Assembly (NCBI GenBank): GCA_020723305.1 | Contig: DYJC01000001.1 | Location: 392,661 to 456,660 of the forward strand | Source: Desulfosudis oleivorans | GTDB lineage: Bacteria; Desulfobacterota; Desulfobacteria; Desulfobacterales; SURF-7 | Length of the DNA: 64,000 bases | Direction: 5' to 3' | Part shown: piece after piece, positions 24,353 through 29,423 of the stretch | Layout of the letters: every line of letters begins with the position of its first letter | How positions within the stretch are numbered: the stretch's first letter is position 1 | The notes under the pieces: generated by a model | Told to the model about the DNA's origin: nothing | Databases searched by the model: none | Seen by the model: only the letters and a program-made list of their open reading frames with translations | Program-made: the position numbers and the translations under genes

Positions 24353-25108
24353 ATGGGAAAACGGAAACCCTTGATTGCCGGAAACTGGAAAATGTTTAAA
24401 ACCTGCACTGAGGCAGTGGAGACTGCATCAAAGCTTGTCAAGCTGTCATCCAACGTGACAGATACCGATATCATGATCGCACCGACCTTCACCTCCCTTG
24501 CGCTGGTCTCAAAAGTCGTTGCCGGAACCAATGTCGGGCTCGGAGCCCAGAATCTTTTCTGGGAAGCCCAGGGTGCGTATACCGGAGAGATATCCGCCCA
24601 GATGATCCTGTCTGCCGGATGCAGCTATGTGATCATCGGCCATTCCGAGCGCCGCCAGTTTTTTAGTGAAACCGATTCATCTGTCAATAAAAAAATCAAT
24701 TCCGCCATACAGTCCGGACTGATACCGGTCATGTGCATAGGTGAAACCGGCCCGGAAAGGGATGCGGATAAAACATTTTCTATTCTTGACAAACAGGTGC
24801 AAATGGGGTTAGAAGGTTTTTCTTCGGGGAATCTTCGTTCTCTGGTGATTGCCTACGAGCCGGTCTGGGCCATTGGAACAGGTAAAACCGCTACCAGCGG
24901 CCAGGCACAGGAGGTTCACCGGTTTTTGCGGTCCCTGATTGAAAAAAAATTTGACAAAAACCTTGCTGAGTCCATCAGGATATTATATGGAGGGAGCGTC
25001 AAACCGGACAATATTGCAGAATTGATGTCCATGCCGGATATCGACGGAGCATTGGTTGGCGGCGCAAGCCTGGATCCGGAAGTTTTCAGCAAAATTATAC
25101 ACTTTTAG
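24353..25108 (+). CDS. tpiA: Triose-phosphate isomerase
   Basis: AGNWKM, IIGHSERR and AYEPVWAIGTG motifs. Confidence 0.96.
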   Translation: MGKRKPLIAGNWKMFKTCTEAVETASKLVKLSSNVTDTDIMIAPTFTSLALVSKVVAGTNVGLGAQNLFWEAQGAYTGEISAQMILSAGCSYVIIGHSERRQFFSETDSSVNKKINSAIQSGLIPVMCIGETGPERDADKTFSILDKQVQMGLEGFSSGNLRSLVIAYEPVWAIGTGKTATSGQAQEVHRFLRSLIEKKFDKNLAESIRILYGGSVKPDNIAELMSMPDIDGALVGGASLDPEVFSKIIHF

Positions 25109-25131
25109 GGTAAGGTTTATCTGGTCATTAT

Positions 25132-25569
25132 ATGGAAATTTTAATCGTAACACTGCATGTTATCGTATGTCTGGCACTGATCATGATCGTGCTGCTTCAG
25201 ACCGGTAAAGGTGCGGATATGGGGGCCGCTTTTGGCGGCGGCAGCAGCCAGACTCTTTTCGGCAGCACCGGAGCCAGCACATTTTTGAGCAAGGCAACCA
25301 CGGTTGCAGCCATCGTCTTCATGGGGACCTGTTTCCTGCTGGCCTATCTGTCTGCTAATCGCGAGTCCAGTTCCATCATGAAAGAGGCAAAAACCAGTAC
25401 TGAACAGACAGTTCCTGTTCAAACAGCGCCGACTGCCCAGCCCGCAGCAAAAGCACCGGAAGCACCGGCTGCACCAGCCACAGCCAAGGCTCCAGCGCAA
25501 CAAGCGGCTGCTGAAACACCGGCTGCACCGGCCCAGACCGGAAAAGCTTCTCCAGCCAAGGCTGAATAA
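25132..25569 (+). CDS. secG: Preprotein translocase subunit SecG with Ala/Pro-rich C-terminal tail
   Basis: Two TM segments flank the GGGSSQTLFG motif. The position after tpiA is conserved. There is an extra tail of about 45 aa rich in A/P/K/Q. Confidence 0.82.
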   Translation: MEILIVTLHVIVCLALIMIVLLQTGKGADMGAAFGGGSSQTLFGSTGASTFLSKATTVAAIVFMGTCFLLAYLSANRESSSIMKEAKTSTEQTVPVQTAPTAQPAAKAPEAPAAPATAKAPAQQAAAETPAAPAQTGKASPAKAE

Positions 25570-25582
25570 AAAGATACCTCGT

Positions 25583-25667
25583 GCCGAAGTGGTGGAATTG
25601 GTAGACACGCTATCTTGAGGGGGTAGTGGTAACAACCGTGCCGGTTCAAGTCCGGCCTTCGGCACCA
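25583..25667 (+). tRNA. tRNA-Leu (anticodon GAG), long variable arm, CCA encoded
   Basis: Acceptor stem GCCGAAG/CTTCGGC, D-arm GTGGTGGAATTGGTAGACAC, anticodon stem CTATC/GGTAG with loop TTGAGGG, T-arm GGTTCAAGTCC, and a 3' ACCA. Confidence 0.9.
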
Positions 25668-25687
25668 TCCAATAAAAATACAAAAAA

Positions 25688-25718
25688 GGGGTTATGCGAA
25701 AAGCATAATCCCTTTTTT
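25688..25718 (+). terminator. Rho-independent terminator after tRNA-Leu
   Basis: ggggttatgc-gaaaa-gcataatccc forms the stem-loop, followed by a T6 run. Confidence 0.7.
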
Positions 25719-25881
25719 GTGTAACAAGTTAAACCCGTTCATCCTCTCCCATCAAAATGAGACCTGTCAGATCTGTTTTTCAAATCACAGAAATGTGGTT
25801 TCGTGCGAAAAACCTCTCAATCTTCCCGAAGGGCAGCGCACTTCCACTACATTCCCCCGAGGGGGCGCAGGGTGTAAATTC

Positions 25882-26133
25882 AAAAAACACACGCAACCAC
25901 CCCAAAACCACGCGCACCAACCGCCGCTCCATGAATAATTTTAAGACTTCGTCGTTCAAACTCATGAATAAGGGATCGTAAGCAAAAAACAGGTGTGCAA
26001 AACTTTAGGAACGCGCTCAAATCAGCCAAAGATATCAGAATCAAATTGCAGCCGGGAAATGAAGCTGTTTTTTGCCAACGATCCCTAATTCATTCAGACA
26101 GTGAACGACTTCGCTATAAAATCATTCATTGCG
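25882..26133 (+). repeat. Left repeat module (alpha unit -> 72-bp unique spacer <- beta unit)
   Basis: It is the reverse complement of 27185..27433 except for the central spacer. The alpha unit is 25929-25992 plus a conserved 47-bp leader, and the beta unit is 26065-26132. The two units are themselves mutually inverted homologs. Confidence 0.8.
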
Positions 26134-26234
26134 CTCTTGCTGTATTAAAAACTGAATTTTGGTTGTTATCCGAAATACTTTGTACAATTTGTCAATGTCC
26201 CTATAGTTTCCTATAGTTCCTAATTCATATTTTA

Positions 26235-26270
26235 ATGTACGTCCCATATCCCATGTACGTCCCATATCCC
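26235..26270 (+). repeat. Tandem direct repeat, 2 x 18 bp (atgtacgtcccatatccc)
   Basis: Two exact adjacent copies, abutting the truncated alpha unit at 26272. Confidence 0.9.
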
Positions 26271-26271
26271 A

Positions 26272-26317
26272 CACGAGTTTGAACGACGCAGTCTTAAAAT
26301 TATTCATGGAGCGGTGG
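26272..26317 (-). repeat. Truncated third copy of the alpha repeat unit
   Basis: cacgagtttgaacgacgcagtcttaaaattattcatggagcggtgg is nearly identical to 27348-27393, the right-module alpha unit. The inner half of the unit is missing. Confidence 0.8.
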
Positions 26318-26493
26318 TCAACGATTATACCAACAAATTTGTTGCCAACTATCCGGTTGGGATCATAAGGTCATATATTTTTCATACGGATAAAGGGAAT
26401 GCCCCTGAAAACCGGTTGACATTTTACCCTGAGACTGCATATTATGATGTCATAATGAATCTATAGAGCGCCATCATTTATGGAGGATTTCCT

Positions 26494-26754
26494 ATGAAAA
26501 CCATAACCATCAGGGGTCTGAATGAACATTTATCCGAAAAGCTAAAACAGGCAGCCAAGAAAGAAGCCAAAAGCATCAACCAGTTTGTAATCGACTCCAT
26601 CCGGAAATCATTAGGAGAAGAAAAAGAAAAAAAATTCAGCGTTATACATCATGATATGGACCACCTTTTCGGCAAATGGTCTGAAAAAGAATATAAACAA
26701 ATTGAAAAAACCATCCATATGGAACGGAAGATTGATAAGGAACTCTGGCCATGA
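26494..26754 (+). CDS. vapB: Ribbon-helix-helix antitoxin (VapB/FitA-like)
   Basis: MKTITIRGLNEHLSEKLKQAAKKEAKSINQFVIDSIRKSL shows the RHH pattern. There is a 4-bp ATGA overlap with the downstream PIN gene. Confidence 0.7.
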   Translation: MKTITIRGLNEHLSEKLKQAAKKEAKSINQFVIDSIRKSLGEEKEKKFSVIHHDMDHLFGKWSEKEYKQIEKTIHMERKIDKELWP

Positions 26755-27143
26755 AGCATCTGCTGATTGACACCAACATCTATTCCAGCGCTATGCGTGG
26801 AGACAAAACAGTCATTGCTGTTCTCCAGCAGGCGGATGAAATTGGAATCTGTTCCATCAGTATTGGCGAACTCCTTTCCGGCTTCAAAGCAGGCGGCCAG
26901 GAAGGAAAAAACAGAAAAGAGCTTGAAGCGTTTCTGGATGCCCCGCGCGTGACATCTTATCAGATCGATGAAAACACGGCTGATTTTTATGCTGAAATAC
27001 TGAATGCATTGAGAAAAGCCGGAACCCCGATTCCCACCAATGACATATGGATTGCTTCCGTTGCCTTTCAACATGGATTAAGGCTGTTCACGAAAGATCA
27101 TCATTTTAATACCATCACCGGTTTGCTGCGAGTAGAACCATAA
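26751..27143 (+). CDS. vapC: PIN-domain toxin VapC
   Basis: LLIDTNI (first acidic residue), GELLSG, TNDIWIA and FTKDHHF motifs. The 130-aa size fits. Confidence 0.85.
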   Translation: MKHLLIDTNIYSSAMRGDKTVIAVLQQADEIGICSISIGELLSGFKAGGQEGKNRKELEAFLDAPRVTSYQIDENTADFYAEILNALRKAGTPIPTNDIWIASVAFQHGLRLFTKDHHFNTITGLLRVEP

Positions 27144-27184
27144 CATGGGACCGGGACGAGATTATTCTGCTTCATGGCAATAGC

Positions 27185-27433
27185 GGAATGAATGATTTTA
27201 TAGCGGAGTCGTTCACTGTCTGAGTGGGTTAGGGATCATTAGTAAAAAACAGCATCAACTGCCGACCGGAATTCATCACGAATAAAGACGGCAAACCTGA
27301 CTGCTTGTTAATTTTTCCGATTCTGTTTTTTACTTATGATCCCTTATCCACGAGTTTGAACGACGCAGTCTTAAAATTATTCATGGAGCGGTGGTTGATG
27401 CGCATTGTTTTGGGGTGGTTGTGTGTGTTTTTT
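27185..27433 (-). repeat. Right repeat module (inverted copy of 25882..26133 with a different 70-bp spacer)
   Basis: Beta unit 27186-27252, spacer 27253-27322, alpha unit 27323-27386, plus the conserved leader to 27433. It ends 14 bp from the stop of the Lif-like gene. Confidence 0.8.
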
Positions 27434-27446
27434 CGATTCGTACTGT

Positions 27447-28520
27447 CTAGTTTCTTCCATACACCCGTGGCCGGTTAAACCGGAAAAAATTATCCTTTTC
27501 TTCCAGCTCAATGGTTTTGGCTTCGTGCTTGAAATGTTTTTCGCGAAGCTCTTTTAAACGGGCATCCAGTGCTTCTCCTTCAAGCTCTTGTGTAGCATGT
27601 TCGCGCTCTTCCATGTATGTCAGACCCTCTGCCCATCGGCATTCCTGATATTCGTCGCGTTGCTCCATTTTTTCAATCTGTTCCTGAGAAAAACCTATTT
27701 CTCTTCGAATCCGGTTGATTTCAACCCTGCGCTGCTCCGGGCTCAGACTTTTGAGTTCATTCTGAACAGAATCAATGCCGAAGAACACCTTTGCCAGCAT
27801 ATCCTTGTTCTGCAATACATAGGCTTCCGGAGAGTTCTGATACGCTTCCTGGATCGATGTCTGATAGAGATCCAGTTTTTCATGAATGGGAATGTCATCG
27901 GCCTTGTCCAGAAAATCCAGTGCATCCCGCACATTCTGCTTTCTTTTCTCATAGGCCAGTACTTCCTCGGACCAGATTTCGCTTGCATCATCCCCGAAGA
28001 ATTCCTTCCGTTTTTCCCATAACAGGCCCTGCTTTTCGACGCTGTTCATCCTGGACAGTTCATCTGCGTTTTCTTCCATCCAGCGTTGATACTGCTCCAG
28101 CTTCGCCAGAACCTTCATGATCTCATCTGCCAGATCCGGGAAAGCCCGTTTAAGGATATTGTAAAACCGGCTTTCTCCATCCTCAGGATAAAGCCTCATG
28201 ACGAATTTTTTGACTTTCAATAGTATGACCTGTGTGCTTTTTTCCGAAATTGTCTTGCCGTAGAATTCTTTCAATTCCTTTACCAGTCGGTCTTCGATGG
28301 AAGGCGCTGATTGCTCCTGGCCTGTTTCAGGAGCAGACTTGTCAAGCATCAGCTGCTGCCTGTCATGGTTTGCCGGAATGCCGGCCACTGAACCTGATTT
28401 ACCGGACAACCTTCCTGAGTCTGCCGTCAGATAATAGCCAAATCCTGCTGCGGACAGAAAAACAACTACTGCAATTATCCCCCACTTTACCTTCCTTTTC
28501 CGGAAAAAGGACTCTTTCAT
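27447..28520 (-). CDS. Membrane-anchored all-helical protein, lipase-specific foldase (Lif)-like
   Basis: N-terminal TM anchor (WGIIAVVVFLSAAGFGYYL) followed by a long charged helical region. Segments such as FFGDDASEIWSEEVLAYEKRK and SPEQRRVEINRIRREIGFSQEQIEKMEQRDE resemble Lif repeats. It lies immediately downstream of a lipase gene. The assignment is by resemblance only. Confidence 0.5.
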   Translation of the reverse strand: MKESFFRKRKVKWGIIAVVVFLSAAGFGYYLTADSGRLSGKSGSVAGIPANHDRQQLMLDKSAPETGQEQSAPSIEDRLVKELKEFYGKTISEKSTQVILLKVKKFVMRLYPEDGESRFYNILKRAFPDLADEIMKVLAKLEQYQRWMEENADELSRMNSVEKQGLLWEKRKEFFGDDASEIWSEEVLAYEKRKQNVRDALDFLDKADDIPIHEKLDLYQTSIQEAYQNSPEAYVLQNKDMLAKVFFGIDSVQNELKSLSPEQRRVEINRIRREIGFSQEQIEKMEQRDEYQECRWAEGLTYMEEREHATQELEGEALDARLKELREKHFKHEAKTIELEEKDNFFRFNRPRVYGRN

Positions 28521-28572
28521 CTTGATTCTCCGCGATAAAAAAACAATTCATTTTCTGAAAGAATAAAAAAAA

Positions 28573-28609
28573 GGGGGACATGGAAAACGTCTGTTATCCT
28601 TCTGCCCCC
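28573..28609. terminator. Hairpin flanked by an A8 and a T6 run (bidirectional terminator-like) between the lipase and Lif-like genes
   Basis: The ggggg...ccccc stem is flanked by aaaaaaaa on the 5' side and tttttt on the 3' side. Confidence 0.45.
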
Positions 28610-28673
28610 TTTTTTAAAAGGGTCATATGTTCACTTCAGCACAACAATCTGCCACAAACTGTTTTCCTTTTAT

Positions 28674-29423
28674 TTACAGCAGCGGTGCCAGTACCGGCCA
28701 GATCAGATTGGCCAGTTTTTGTGAACCGGATGTTGTGGGATGAATGGCATCGGATTTGATATCGCTGTCTTTGATCGTAGATCGTGGATCAACAAACCGG
28801 CAGTCTACCGATGAATTCTGACATGCCAGTGCCAGTTTTGCATCACCATAATCAATGGCTTCTTCCAGATCGTCAAGCTGCAACAGTAATGTATTTTTTG
28901 TGTAGTAATACCCCTGATAGATAACATGATCGACACCATCCGCATGCATGTCATTCAGCAGATTCACGCAGTCAACATAGATATCATCAATGAAATTTTT
29001 ACAGGTGCTGGAGAGCTTTCCCCACTCATACCACTGTGTTTTACAATCATAAGGATCAAATGCGATTGCAGGCAGCAGAATGTCATTCCCGCCGCCATCC
29101 ATGATAATAATCTCGATATCCGGATTATCATTTTTTGCAATATCATATTGGCTGTACAGGGAAGGAGCTAAAACCCCGCCGCTCAGTTCTGCACCGGAAA
29201 CAGCATACCGGCGAAACGTCTGACCGGCATAGGCGTGTAAAAAATTGTTGATCTCCCCGGAAAGTGCAAAAATGGAATCACCGATATTCACTACCTGATT
29301 GTTGCCTGCATTGGTTATCCAGGGAACACTGGCAACAAATCCGCAGCCGATCGTGGCAGCGACGAACAATGATACAACAGTAAACCGGACAAGTGACTTT
29401 GGTTTTGATAAAAAGTTTTTCAC
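28674..29423 (-). CDS. SGNH/GDSL-family lipase/esterase, probable lipoprotein
   Basis: Block I VNIGDSIFA (GDS), block III DGGGNDI, block V DAIHPT. The signal peptide ends in a lipobox-like AATIGC. Confidence 0.75.
   Translation of the reverse strand: MKNFLSKPKSLVRFTVVSLFVAATIGCGFVASVPWITNAGNNQVVNIGDSIFALSGEINNFLHAYAGQTFRRYAVSGAELSGGVLAPSLYSQYDIAKNDNPDIEIIIMDGGGNDILLPAIAFDPYDCKTQWYEWGKLSSTCKNFIDDIYVDCVNLLNDMHADGVDHVIYQGYYYTKNTLLLQLDDLEEAIDYGDAKLALACQNSSVDCRFVDPRSTIKDSDIKSDAIHPTTSGSQKLANLIWPVLAPLL

What the first reader, a model, noticed from the sequence alone, without database searches (positions are those of the whole stretch)
25583..27446. vapBC cassette next to tRNA-Leu bracketed by about 250-bp inverted modules, each built from two convergent 65-bp repeat units around a unique 70-72-bp spacer
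Seen:
- Directly after tRNA-Leu and its terminator lies module L (25882-26133). It consists of an alpha unit (25929-25992, with a conserved 47-bp leader), a 72-bp spacer, and an inverted beta unit (26065-26132).
- Module R (27185-27433) is the same structure in reverse complement, with beta at 27186-27252, a 70-bp spacer and alpha at 27323-27386.
- The two spacers are unrelated in sequence but nearly equal in length.
- Alpha and beta are diverged inverted homologs of each other. Both end in ...agggatc.t..g.aaaaaacag, so each module can fold into a hairpin with a stem of about 65 bp.
- A truncated third alpha copy (26272-26317) abuts a 2x18-bp tandem repeat.
- vapB and vapC sit between the modules.

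Established: tRNA 3' flanks are integration hot spots, and toxin-antitoxin pairs are typical cargo of small mobile cassettes.

Inference: this is a small non-autonomous mobile cassette, or a recombination-site-bounded TA module of a type I cannot match to known IS ends, integron attC sites or REP elements. Conserved arms with variable, length-constrained centres suggest a structure-specific recombinase or nuclease substrate, or a structured RNA.
Basis: partly seen in the sequence, partly recalled or inferred. Interest (0 to 1): 0.65.

Follow-up and report, generated by a model that had tools for sequence, protein, structure and literature searches.

The report
Dispersed hairpin repeats flanking vapBC
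The two 250-bp "modules" around this toxin-antitoxin pair are copies of a ~209-bp hairpin-forming, non-coding repeat scattered through Desulfobacteraceae genomes: a new family of a known kind of small bacterial repeat, not the two ends of one mobile vapBC cassette.

Summary
L (core 25926-26135) and R (core 27182-27389) are inverted copies. Each is a long imperfect palindrome with a diverged 70-72-nt centre, and a truncated third copy lies at 26261-26318.

They are not locus-specific. The same sharply bounded 207-210-bp element, plus a 110-bp short form, occurs at more than 20 other loci in at least four Desulfobacteraceae genomes and in metagenomes. The "unique spacers" are subfamily-specific centres: L's is shared with L005, L012, L017 and L022, and R's with L004 and L016.

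Arms are 97-100% identical between copies whose centres are 74-87% identical. Six stem pairs show compensatory changes. Every non-Watson-Crick stem cell is A:C on one strand and therefore G:U on the other, so one specific strand forms the selected hairpin.

I found no target-site duplication, transposase, RAYT, integrase or Rfam match.

A close relative (L026) carries the same vapBC next to the same neighbour gene without the modules, so vapBC is not their cargo.

However, toxin-antitoxin cassettes abut the element's alpha terminus in five toxin-antitoxin families. Three of them are bounded by direct repeats of that terminus. Head-to-head pairs recur in four of four paired loci.

Best reading: a REPIN/MITE-like non-autonomous hairpin repeat. 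The mechanism remains inferred.

The parts
25583..25667 (+). tRNA-Leu(GAG). This is the conserved left anchor; homology to relatives ends at about 25676-25727.
25680..25720 (+). tRNA terminator hairpin
   Evidence: I10
25880..25925 (-). 'Leader' of L, an extension on the alpha side. It is shared only with R, L022 and partly L005a. It is G/U-rich on the minus strand, is predicted to pair with the beta-side extension, and ends in a U6 run.
25926..26135 (-). Element L core, 210 bp: alpha arm 25926-25992, centre 25993-26064, beta arm 26065-26135. The strand inferred to form the selected hairpin is the minus strand.
26136..26207 (.). Extension on the beta side (...GAAATACTTTGTACAATTTGTCAATGTCCC). 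It is shared with L004, L016, L022, L023 and L024.
26200..26271 (.). Short tandem repeats: a 10-bp unit x2.4 at 26200-26222 and an 18-bp unit x2 at 26235-26271. They carry a recurring GTCCC(A/T)ATA motif.
26261..26318 (+). Truncated third copy, covering the outer ~49 nt of the alpha arm plus GGTGGT. Positions 26272-26318 are 100% identical to 27349-27395, giving a direct repeat on either side of vapBC. Homology to the L026 vapBC cassette starts 2-6 nt to its right.
   Evidence: (D2)
26416..26445 (+). vapBC promoter-like site, TTGACA-18-TATTAT (11 of 12 consensus positions)
26494..26754 (+). vapB, an RHH-type antitoxin
26751..27143 (+). vapC, a PIN-domain toxin
27159..27181 (.). Partial beta-side extension of R (first ~22 nt only, ...GAAGCAGAATAA). 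L021 is truncated at the same point.
27182..27389 (+). Element R core, 208 bp: beta arm 27182-27252, centre 27253-27322, alpha arm 27323-27389. The hairpin-forming strand is the plus strand, the same as vapBC. R starts 39 nt after the vapC stop codon.
27390..27435 (+). 'Leader' of R. It is G/U-rich on the plus strand and ends in a T6 run 11 nt before the stop codon of the convergent 357-aa gene.
27447..28520 (-). 357-aa gene with no Pfam match; one database source calls a homolog 'lipase helper protein'. This is the conserved right anchor.

Best explanation
L and R, plus the fragment at 26261-26318, are copies of a previously unannotated dispersed non-coding repeat of Desulfobacteraceae.

**Anatomy (shown).** The core is 207-210 bp. 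It has two near-invariant inverted arms of 66 and 71 nt that pair into a hairpin of about 49 bp with fixed bulges. These arms flank a fast-evolving centre of 70-74 nt. A 110-bp short form keeps only the outer stem.

**Strand (shown).** One specific strand, reading beta to alpha', forms the selected hairpin.

**Mechanism (inferred).** I read it as a REPIN/MITE-like non-autonomous element. The arms would be sequence-specific recognition modules for a protein encoded elsewhere in the genome. That protein would act on the hairpin folded from one strand, most likely single-stranded DNA as for HUH/RAYT-type enzymes, without making target-site duplications. The centre would serve only as a spacer or loop.

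**History of this window (shown).** Copies accumulated in the variable interval between tRNA-Leu and the 357-aa gene, on both sides of a vapBC cassette that was already there. They are not the ends of one vapBC transposon.
For: **Multi-copy and bounded**
- A genome scan found 16 loci in 4 genomes and a metagenome scan found 5 more.
- There are 18-19 full copies of 207-210 bp with sharp ends, plus short forms of 110 bp.

**Recent copying**
- L012 and L013, from the same metagenome-assembled genome, are 100% identical across the whole element but have unrelated flanks. There is no target-site duplication.

**Selection on the arms**
- Arms are 97-100% identical while centres are 74-87% and flanks 44-90% identical, including in orthologous pairs. 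For L010 against L018 the arms match 137/137 while the centre is 74% identical.

**Hairpin and strand**
- There are 49 predicted pairs, 6 of them with compensatory double changes. Two further compensatory pairs appear in the short forms.
- On the beta-to-alpha' strand, 100% of 882 stem cells form standard pairs, including 9 G:U; 0 of 500 shuffles reach this.
- On the opposite strand those same cells are A:C mismatches, and there is not one G:T.

**REPIN architecture**
- REPINs are described as two inverted conserved units with a less conserved spacer, where spacer length and hairpin capacity matter, compensatory changes are common, and the hairpin forms in ssDNA or mRNA (PMC3116915).

**vapBC was there first**
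- L026 has vapBC beside the 357-aa gene without any module. L027 has the same vapC in another context.
- Relatives carry other genes in the interval.
Against: - No transposase, RAYT or recombinase was found in the window or in about 170 kb of element-bearing loci. If a RAYT were flanked by these elements, as RAYTs usually are, the scan should have captured it.
- Copy number looks modest: up to 9 loci per genome with a strict pattern, in fragmented assemblies. Typical REPINs number in the hundreds.
- The arms are much longer than REP units and lack their GC-rich mini-palindrome.
- No clean filled-versus-empty site pair was obtained. R in the window replaces the 72-bp spacer of L026 rather than interrupting it.
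- The right end is fuzzy. Copies share graded extensions of 12, 22 or about 75 nt.
- G:U tolerance fits an RNA hairpin as well as a DNA one.
- The regular association with toxin-antitoxin cassettes is not predicted by a purely selfish repeat.
Confidence: 0.5

Rival explanations
1. The element acts in cis at the RNA level, like ERIC or bcr1 repeats. Transcribed on the beta-to-alpha' strand, it forms a very stable hairpin that terminates, insulates or stabilises transcripts. R would be the 3' end or terminator of the vapBC mRNA. L would stop leftward transcription before it reaches tRNA-Leu. Pairs would insulate inserted cassettes from the core genes on either side.
For: - G:U-only tolerance on one strand.
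- R lies 39 nt after the vapC stop codon on the same strand.
- In extended L and R the beta-side extension pairs with the G/U-rich leader, and the stem is followed by a U6 run.
- All four head-to-head pairs have that strand pointing outward from the cargo.
- In five toxin-antitoxin families the element lies upstream of the operon and is co-directional with it, as an upstream insulator would be.
- bcr1 and ERIC are precedents for repeats that function at the RNA level (PMC3184786).
Against: - In about 7 of 11 scorable loci there is no co-oriented upstream gene to transcribe that strand.
- No conserved promoter was found.
- The family core has no U-tract; only L, R and L022 carry the leader.
- Near-invariance of the arm sequence, rather than only of the pairing, points to protein recognition more than to a generic hairpin.
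- There is no Rfam match.
Confidence: 0.25
2. The element is a folded recombination site that works like an integron attC or a pdif site. Small cassettes, mostly toxin-antitoxin pairs, would be inserted or exchanged at its alpha terminus by an unidentified structure-specific recombinase.
For: - Toxin-antitoxin cassettes sit exactly at the alpha' terminus (GGAGC|GGYGKT...) in five families.
- Three cassettes are bounded by direct repeats of that terminus:
  - window, 47 nt and 100% identical (D2);
  - L005, about 45 nt diverged plus GGTGTTCATT;
  - L028 against its ortholog L004, where a cassette of about 1.06 kb is flanked by CCGCTCCATG.
- Homology of the vapBC cassette to L026 starts 2-6 nt after the terminus repeat and ends at the vapC stop codon.
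- The hairpin is strand-specific with fixed bulges.
- Long and short forms occupy the same position upstream of the same MazE-PIN cassette.
Against: - No integrase or recombinase was found near any copy.
- There are no attC R/L boxes, and the long form exceeds attC size.
- Orientations are mixed rather than uniform arrays.
- The lengths of the terminus repeats vary (10, about 45 and 47 nt), which fits deletion or homologous recombination between copies as well as it fits a fixed crossover point.
- Other toxin-antitoxin cassettes (L007, L008) have no terminus repeat at their far end.
- The same vapBC occurs without any element.
Confidence: 0.12
3. The element is a classical MITE: a deletion derivative of an insertion sequence with terminal inverted repeats, moved by a DDE transposase. 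L and R would then form a composite transposon carrying vapBC.
For: - The element is small, multi-copy, non-coding and has inverted ends.
- It folds with RNA stability comparable to Chunjie.
- L and R are inverted, with alpha ends outward.
- MITE pairs that mobilise cargo are known; the review cites the IMU element (PMC3184786).
Against: - No target-site duplication is seen at any of about 20 copies, nor at the identical L012/L013 pair, nor around the L-to-R composite.
- No parent insertion sequence was found.
- Compensatory changes and a strand-specific G:U pattern are not expected for double-stranded terminal inverted repeats.
- vapBC sits at the same site without the modules in L026.
Confidence: 0.08

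Closest known systems
REPINs (REP doublets forming hairpins) mobilised by RAYT transposases
   Same: Both have two inverted, highly conserved units around a less conserved spacer whose length and hairpin capacity matter. Both show compensatory changes across the stem, a hairpin predicted in ssDNA or mRNA, an intergenic location, vertical persistence and no coding capacity (PMC3116915).
   Different: - Arms are 66-71 nt, against REP units of about 20-35 nt.
- The whole element is about 209 bp, against about 90-110 bp.
- There is no GC-rich REP mini-palindrome.
- Copy number is tens, not hundreds.
- No RAYT was found next to any copy.
- A 110-bp short form exists.
- Toxin-antitoxin cassettes abut one terminus.
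Bacterial MITEs and palindromic intergenic repeats (Chunjie of Geobacter, Correia, ERIC, bcr1)
   Same: They are comparable in size (Chunjie is 178-235 bp), fold into a very stable stem-loop, lie between genes and are multi-copy. bcr1 also shows compensatory changes that preserve an RNA structure (PMC3184786).
   Different: [quoted passage not shown] None is seen here.
- Their terminal inverted repeats are short (about 21-26 bp). Here the whole arm is conserved.
- No related insertion sequence was found.
Integron attC sites, including attC clusters that lack an integrase
   Same: Both are imperfect palindromes with conserved arms, fixed extrahelical positions and a variable central part. In both, a single strand is the functional hairpin. 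Both are associated with small cassettes that are often toxin-antitoxin pairs.
   Different: - There are no RYYYAAC/GTTRRRY boxes.
- The 209-bp form exceeds the 57-141-bp attC range (a figure from my own knowledge).
- Orientations are mixed.
- No IntI was found.
- Cassettes lie on the promoter-proximal side of the site.
pdif modules of Acinetobacter plasmids
   Same: In both, small modules, often toxin-antitoxin pairs, are bracketed by inverted recombination sites. This description of pdif modules is from my own knowledge.
   Different: pdif sites are 28-bp XerC/XerD sites. Nothing dif-like is present here, and the setting is chromosomal.

Membership tests
MITE | Small (<~400 bp), non-coding, multi-copy | tested here: met
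   The element is 207-210 bp, occurs at more than 20 loci, and shows no conserved ORF: codon-position changes are non-synonymous and are compensated in the opposite arm.
MITE | Terminal inverted repeats | tested here: met
   The alpha and beta arms are inverted homologs.
MITE | Flanking target-site duplication | tested here: not met
   No direct repeat was found at the flanks of about 20 copies, or at the identical L012/L013 pair.
MITE | Parent insertion sequence or transposase with the same termini | tested here: inconclusive
   None was found in the loci, plasmids or phages. Whole genomes could not be searched.
REPIN | Two inverted conserved units, a less conserved spacer, and a hairpin with compensatory changes | tested here: met
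   definition taken from PMC3116915
REPIN | The units are REP sequences (short GC-rich palindromes) | tested here: not met
   The arms are 66-71 nt, AT-rich and not internally palindromic.
REPIN | A cognate RAYT gene flanked by the repeats | tested here: inconclusive
   tblastn found no Y1 transposase in the window or in any element-bearing locus (queries recalled from memory). Whole genomes were not searchable.
Integron attC | R''/R' boxes (RYYYAAC...GTTRRRY) at the ends | tested here: not met
   The ends are GCTCCATGAAT...ATTCATTCCGCT. The internal GTT...AAC motifs are in the wrong order.
Integron attC | Arrays in one orientation, with or near an intI gene | tested here: not met
   Orientations are mixed and no IntI-like ORF was found.
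Known RNA family (Rfam) | Match to a curated covariance model | tested here: not met
   Only the tRNA matched at E<=1 across 24500-28500.
tRNA-targeted integrative island | Integrase gene and duplicated 3' end of the tRNA | tested here: not met
   The tRNA 3' end occurs once in the window. Neighbouring genes are housekeeping.
VapBC type II toxin-antitoxin pair | Small RHH/AbrB-type antitoxin overlapping a PIN-domain toxin | tested here: met
   PIN domain at 2.3e-15; RHH (HicB/FitA-like) match; 4-bp overlap between the two genes.

The most novel reading that the evidence does not exclude
The hairpin element is the recombination site of an undescribed cassette-exchange system in Desulfobacteraceae. 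A structure- and strand-specific recombinase, encoded elsewhere in the genome, would insert or excise small promoter-bearing cassettes (mainly toxin-antitoxin pairs) at the alpha terminus (…CATGGAGC|GGYGKT). This would be functionally analogous to attC or pdif sites but unrelated to them in sequence.
Probability: 0.13. Interest if true: 0.8.

Novelty: new member of a known kind. Interest (0 to 1): 0.42.

Why it matters
- It explains an odd-looking locus. These are repeat copies, not a novel transposon.
- It also explains why short-read assemblies of this lineage break at this spot: the Logan contigs end inside the alpha arm.
- It adds a well-delimited family of long hairpin repeats from sulfate reducers. 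The family shows unusually clean evidence that one strand's hairpin and the arm sequences are under selection.
- The repeated joining of diverse toxin-antitoxin cassettes to one terminus offers a tractable handle on an old question: how chromosomal toxin-antitoxin modules move. That holds only if a recombinational mechanism is confirmed.

Tried and rejected
- **Known RNA families.** An Rfam scan of 24.5-28.5 kb at E<=1 returned only the tRNA.
- **Other collections.** Viral-contig scans with two arm patterns found 0 matches. Sensitive blastn against the plasmid and phage collections found no match.
- **More copies in the window.** nhmmer with core and single-arm profiles found none.
- **Duplicated tRNA 3' end (att site).** None.
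- **Small peptide ORFs in the arms** (MNNFKT..., MNDFIA...). Rejected: the changes are non-synonymous and are compensated in the partner arm.
- **Outward sigma-70 promoters in the arms or the extension.** Only weak, non-conserved matches.
- **A shared protein partner.** ORF clustering across loci recovered only orthologs and spurious ORFs lying over the element. tblastn with RAYT, IS200 TnpA and IntI1 queries found nothing.
- **Cargo of the other head-to-head pairs.** These are unrelated ORFans with no Pfam, NCBIfam or PADLOC match.
- **A clean empty site.**
  - L026 lacks R, but its spacer is unrelated to the window's, so no exact insertion boundary could be read.
  - The contigs for P0002 and P0231 had no DNA available.
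  - P0229 was not on record.
- **Literature.** Searches found no description of this family.
Full report
**1.

tRNA-Leu(GAG) lies at 25583-25667, followed by its terminator hairpin at 25680-25720.

About 160 bp further on, 25877-26140 and 27177-27438 are inverted copies of each other. The two conserved blocks are 129 nt at 86% and 97 nt at 84%. They are interrupted by a centre that is essentially unrelated between the two copies, 32/73 identical.

Each copy is itself an imperfect palindrome. Its inner stems end in AGGGATCNTNNGNAAAAAACAG, a motif found 4 times in 64 kb against 0 expected. Each copy folds far better than shuffled sequence, with z = -4.6 and -4.5.

A truncated alpha copy at 26272-26318 is 47/47 identical to 27349-27395. 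It abuts a 2x18-bp tandem repeat.

Between the modules lie an RHH antitoxin gene and a PIN toxin gene, with a good sigma-70-like promoter.

**2. The modules belong to a dispersed repeat family**

A degenerate single-arm pattern found 16 loci in four Desulfobacteraceae genomes: an uncultured Desulfocicer, D. vacuolatum, 'Desulfobacterium' sp. SW.3.97 and Desulfobacteraceae SURF_7. A second pattern found 5 metagenome contigs. Viral contigs, plasmids and phages gave nothing.

Aligned with their flanks, the copies share sharp ends, GCTCCATGAAT...ATTCATTCCGCT, and a tightly constrained length of 207-210 bp. The window cores are 25926-26135 and 27182-27389.

A 110-bp short form keeps only the outer stem and closes it with an 8-nt loop (L005, L017, L024). 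Short and long forms occupy the same position upstream of the same MazE-PIN cassette.

L as a whole is 89-93% identical to copies in L005, L012, L013, L017 and L022. R is 91-94% identical to copies in L004 and L016.

The 47-bp 'leader' is not part of the core. Only L, R, L022 and partly L005a have it.

Some copies also share graded extensions beyond the beta end, of 12, 22 or about 75 nt. L has the full extension (26136-26207). R has only the first 22 nt (27159-27181).

The 64-kb window holds no further copies.

**3. What is under selection**

In pairwise comparisons, including orthologous copies in different species, arms are 97-100% identical. Centres are 74-87% identical and flanks 44-90%. 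For L010 against L018 the arms match 137/137 while the centre is 74% identical. This pattern indicates purifying selection on the arm sequence rather than recent spread.

L012 and L013, in one genome, are identical throughout but have unrelated flanks, which indicates a recent copy event. They show no target-site duplication.

The consensus fold has 49 pairs, 6 of which show compensatory double changes. The short forms add two more.

Every non-Watson-Crick stem cell on the alpha-to-beta strand is A:C (10 cells, at least 7 independent events), and none is G:T. On the complementary strand all 882 cells are therefore standard pairs, 9 of them G:U, and 0 of 500 shuffles reach this. The alpha-to-beta strand reaches 98.9%.

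The selected hairpin therefore forms on the beta-to-alpha' strand, as RNA or as single-stranded DNA. In the window that is the plus strand for R and for the fragment, and the minus strand for L.

**4. Is vapBC cargo? No**

L026, a close relative, has the same vapBC region at 93% identity (window 26324-27143). It lies directly beside the same 357-aa gene (91% identity), separated by only 72 bp of unrelated spacer. L026 has no module and no alpha fragment. Its left neighbour is an IS701-like transposase.

L027 has the same vapC (92%) next to different genes.

More distant relatives have a liv ABC operon (L019), a NACHT gene (L020) or a VapB-like/RAMA gene plus an R-like element (L023) in the interval between tRNA-Leu and the 357-aa gene.

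The interval is therefore a variable hot spot, and vapBC is a discrete cassette of about 825 bp whose right edge is its stop codon. There is no integrase and no duplicated tRNA end.

The modules are lineage-specific additions at the junctions.

**5. Regularities that a purely selfish repeat does not explain**

(a) Toxin-antitoxin genes lie next to the element in the window and in L005/L016/L024 (MazE-PIN), L007 (Phd-PIN), L008 (Gp49/HI1420), L012 (BrnT), L014 (a DUF6036 nucleotidyltransferase), L023 and L028 (Phd-PIN_3). In five of these families the cassette starts at the alpha' terminus and runs in the same direction as the hairpin strand.

(b) Three cassettes are bounded by direct repeats of that terminus:
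- the window, 47 nt;
- L005, about 45 nt diverged plus GGTGTTCATT;
- L028, where the orthologous site in L004 reads NrdG|element, while L028 reads NrdG|CCGCTCCATG|PIN<-Phd cassette|...CACCGCTCCATGAATAATTTTAAG.

(c) All four paired loci (window, L005, L008, L017) are head-to-head with beta ends inward. Their cargo is unrelated: vapBC or ORFans. L005 and L017 may not be independent of each other.

(d) In extended L and R the beta-side extension is predicted to pair with the G/U-rich leader, and the stem is followed by a U6 run.

**6. Interpretation**

Shown:
- a bounded, multi-copy, non-coding element;
- strong constraint on arm sequence;
- a strand-specific hairpin;
- no target-site duplication;
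- vapBC present before the modules.

Inferred: the mechanism.

The architecture is that of a REPIN (PMC3116915): conserved inverted units, a spacer constrained in length but free in sequence, and compensatory changes. I take that as the best model of how it works. A protein encoded in trans would recognise the arms on a hairpin folded from one strand.

It is not shown to be a REPIN:
- the arms are not REP sequences;
- no RAYT was found;
- copy number is modest.

It fails the target-site-duplication criterion for MITEs (definition in PMC3184786) and the box and array criteria for attC.

An RNA-level role as terminator or insulator is a serious rival. A cassette-recombination role is a less likely but more novel one.

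**7. Verdict**

This is a real feature, but its kind is ordinary. It is a new family of hairpin-forming interspersed repeats, with the toxin-antitoxin terminus association as the one aspect worth following up.

Noticed in passing
L022:340-1822: An IS110-family transposase gene (428 aa; DEDD_Tnp_IS110 plus Transposase_20 domains) sits just beyond the element's beta-side extension. GTCAACAACGT is repeated at both junctions (340-350 and 1812-1822). The same 11-mer is uninterrupted in L004 and L016, so the conserved extension motif looks like the target of this insertion sequence.
   Followed up: partly
L026:3-1214: An IS701-like DDE transposase (403 aa) lies immediately upstream of the vapBC cassette in the relative that lacks the modules. 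Homology to the window starts only 2-6 nt to the right of the window's alpha-fragment repeat.
   Followed up: partly
L010:179-273 and 642-679; L008:3548-3647: A separate repeat family occurs here: 19-bp tandem units (AAGAAATTCGGGCAACCAC) and inverted copies. They flank the subfamily of hairpin elements found in L003, L009, L010, L018 and L008b.
   Followed up: no
window 25851-25880; L005, L006 and L011 on the alpha-side flanks: A C5-6...G5-6 mini-hairpin followed by GGGTGT (window: TTCCCCCGAGGGGGCGCAGGGTGTAAATTC) recurs just outside the alpha end at several loci. It may be another small repeat or part of a longer form of the element.
   Followed up: no
window 26200-26271; L004, L016, L023 and L024 after the extension: After ...TTGTCAAYGTCCC the loci carry short iterated motifs: GTCCCTATAG and GTCCCATATCC in the window, CCCGTAAT x2 in L004. 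They look iteron-like and their role is unknown.
   Followed up: no
L001:5364-5387 and L002:3630-3672: Short-read (Logan) contigs of the source sample end inside the alpha arm of R and inside tRNA-Leu. The repeat causes assembly breaks at this locus.
   Followed up: yes
JGI sample 3300075153 (contigs carrying P0002 and P0231; no DNA available): In the closest relative sample, the site downstream of NrdG holds a MazE(80 aa)-PIN(132 aa) cassette. The interval between the 357-aa gene and secG holds other small ORFs. Both hot spots are therefore variable even among near relatives.
   Followed up: no
window 27447-29423: The 357-aa gene has no Pfam match, and one database source calls a homolog 'lipase helper protein'. 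It is followed by a GDSL-type lipase/acylhydrolase gene (weak, sub-threshold Pfam match), so the two may form a lipase and helper pair, conserved across Desulfobacterales metagenome-assembled genomes.
   Followed up: partly
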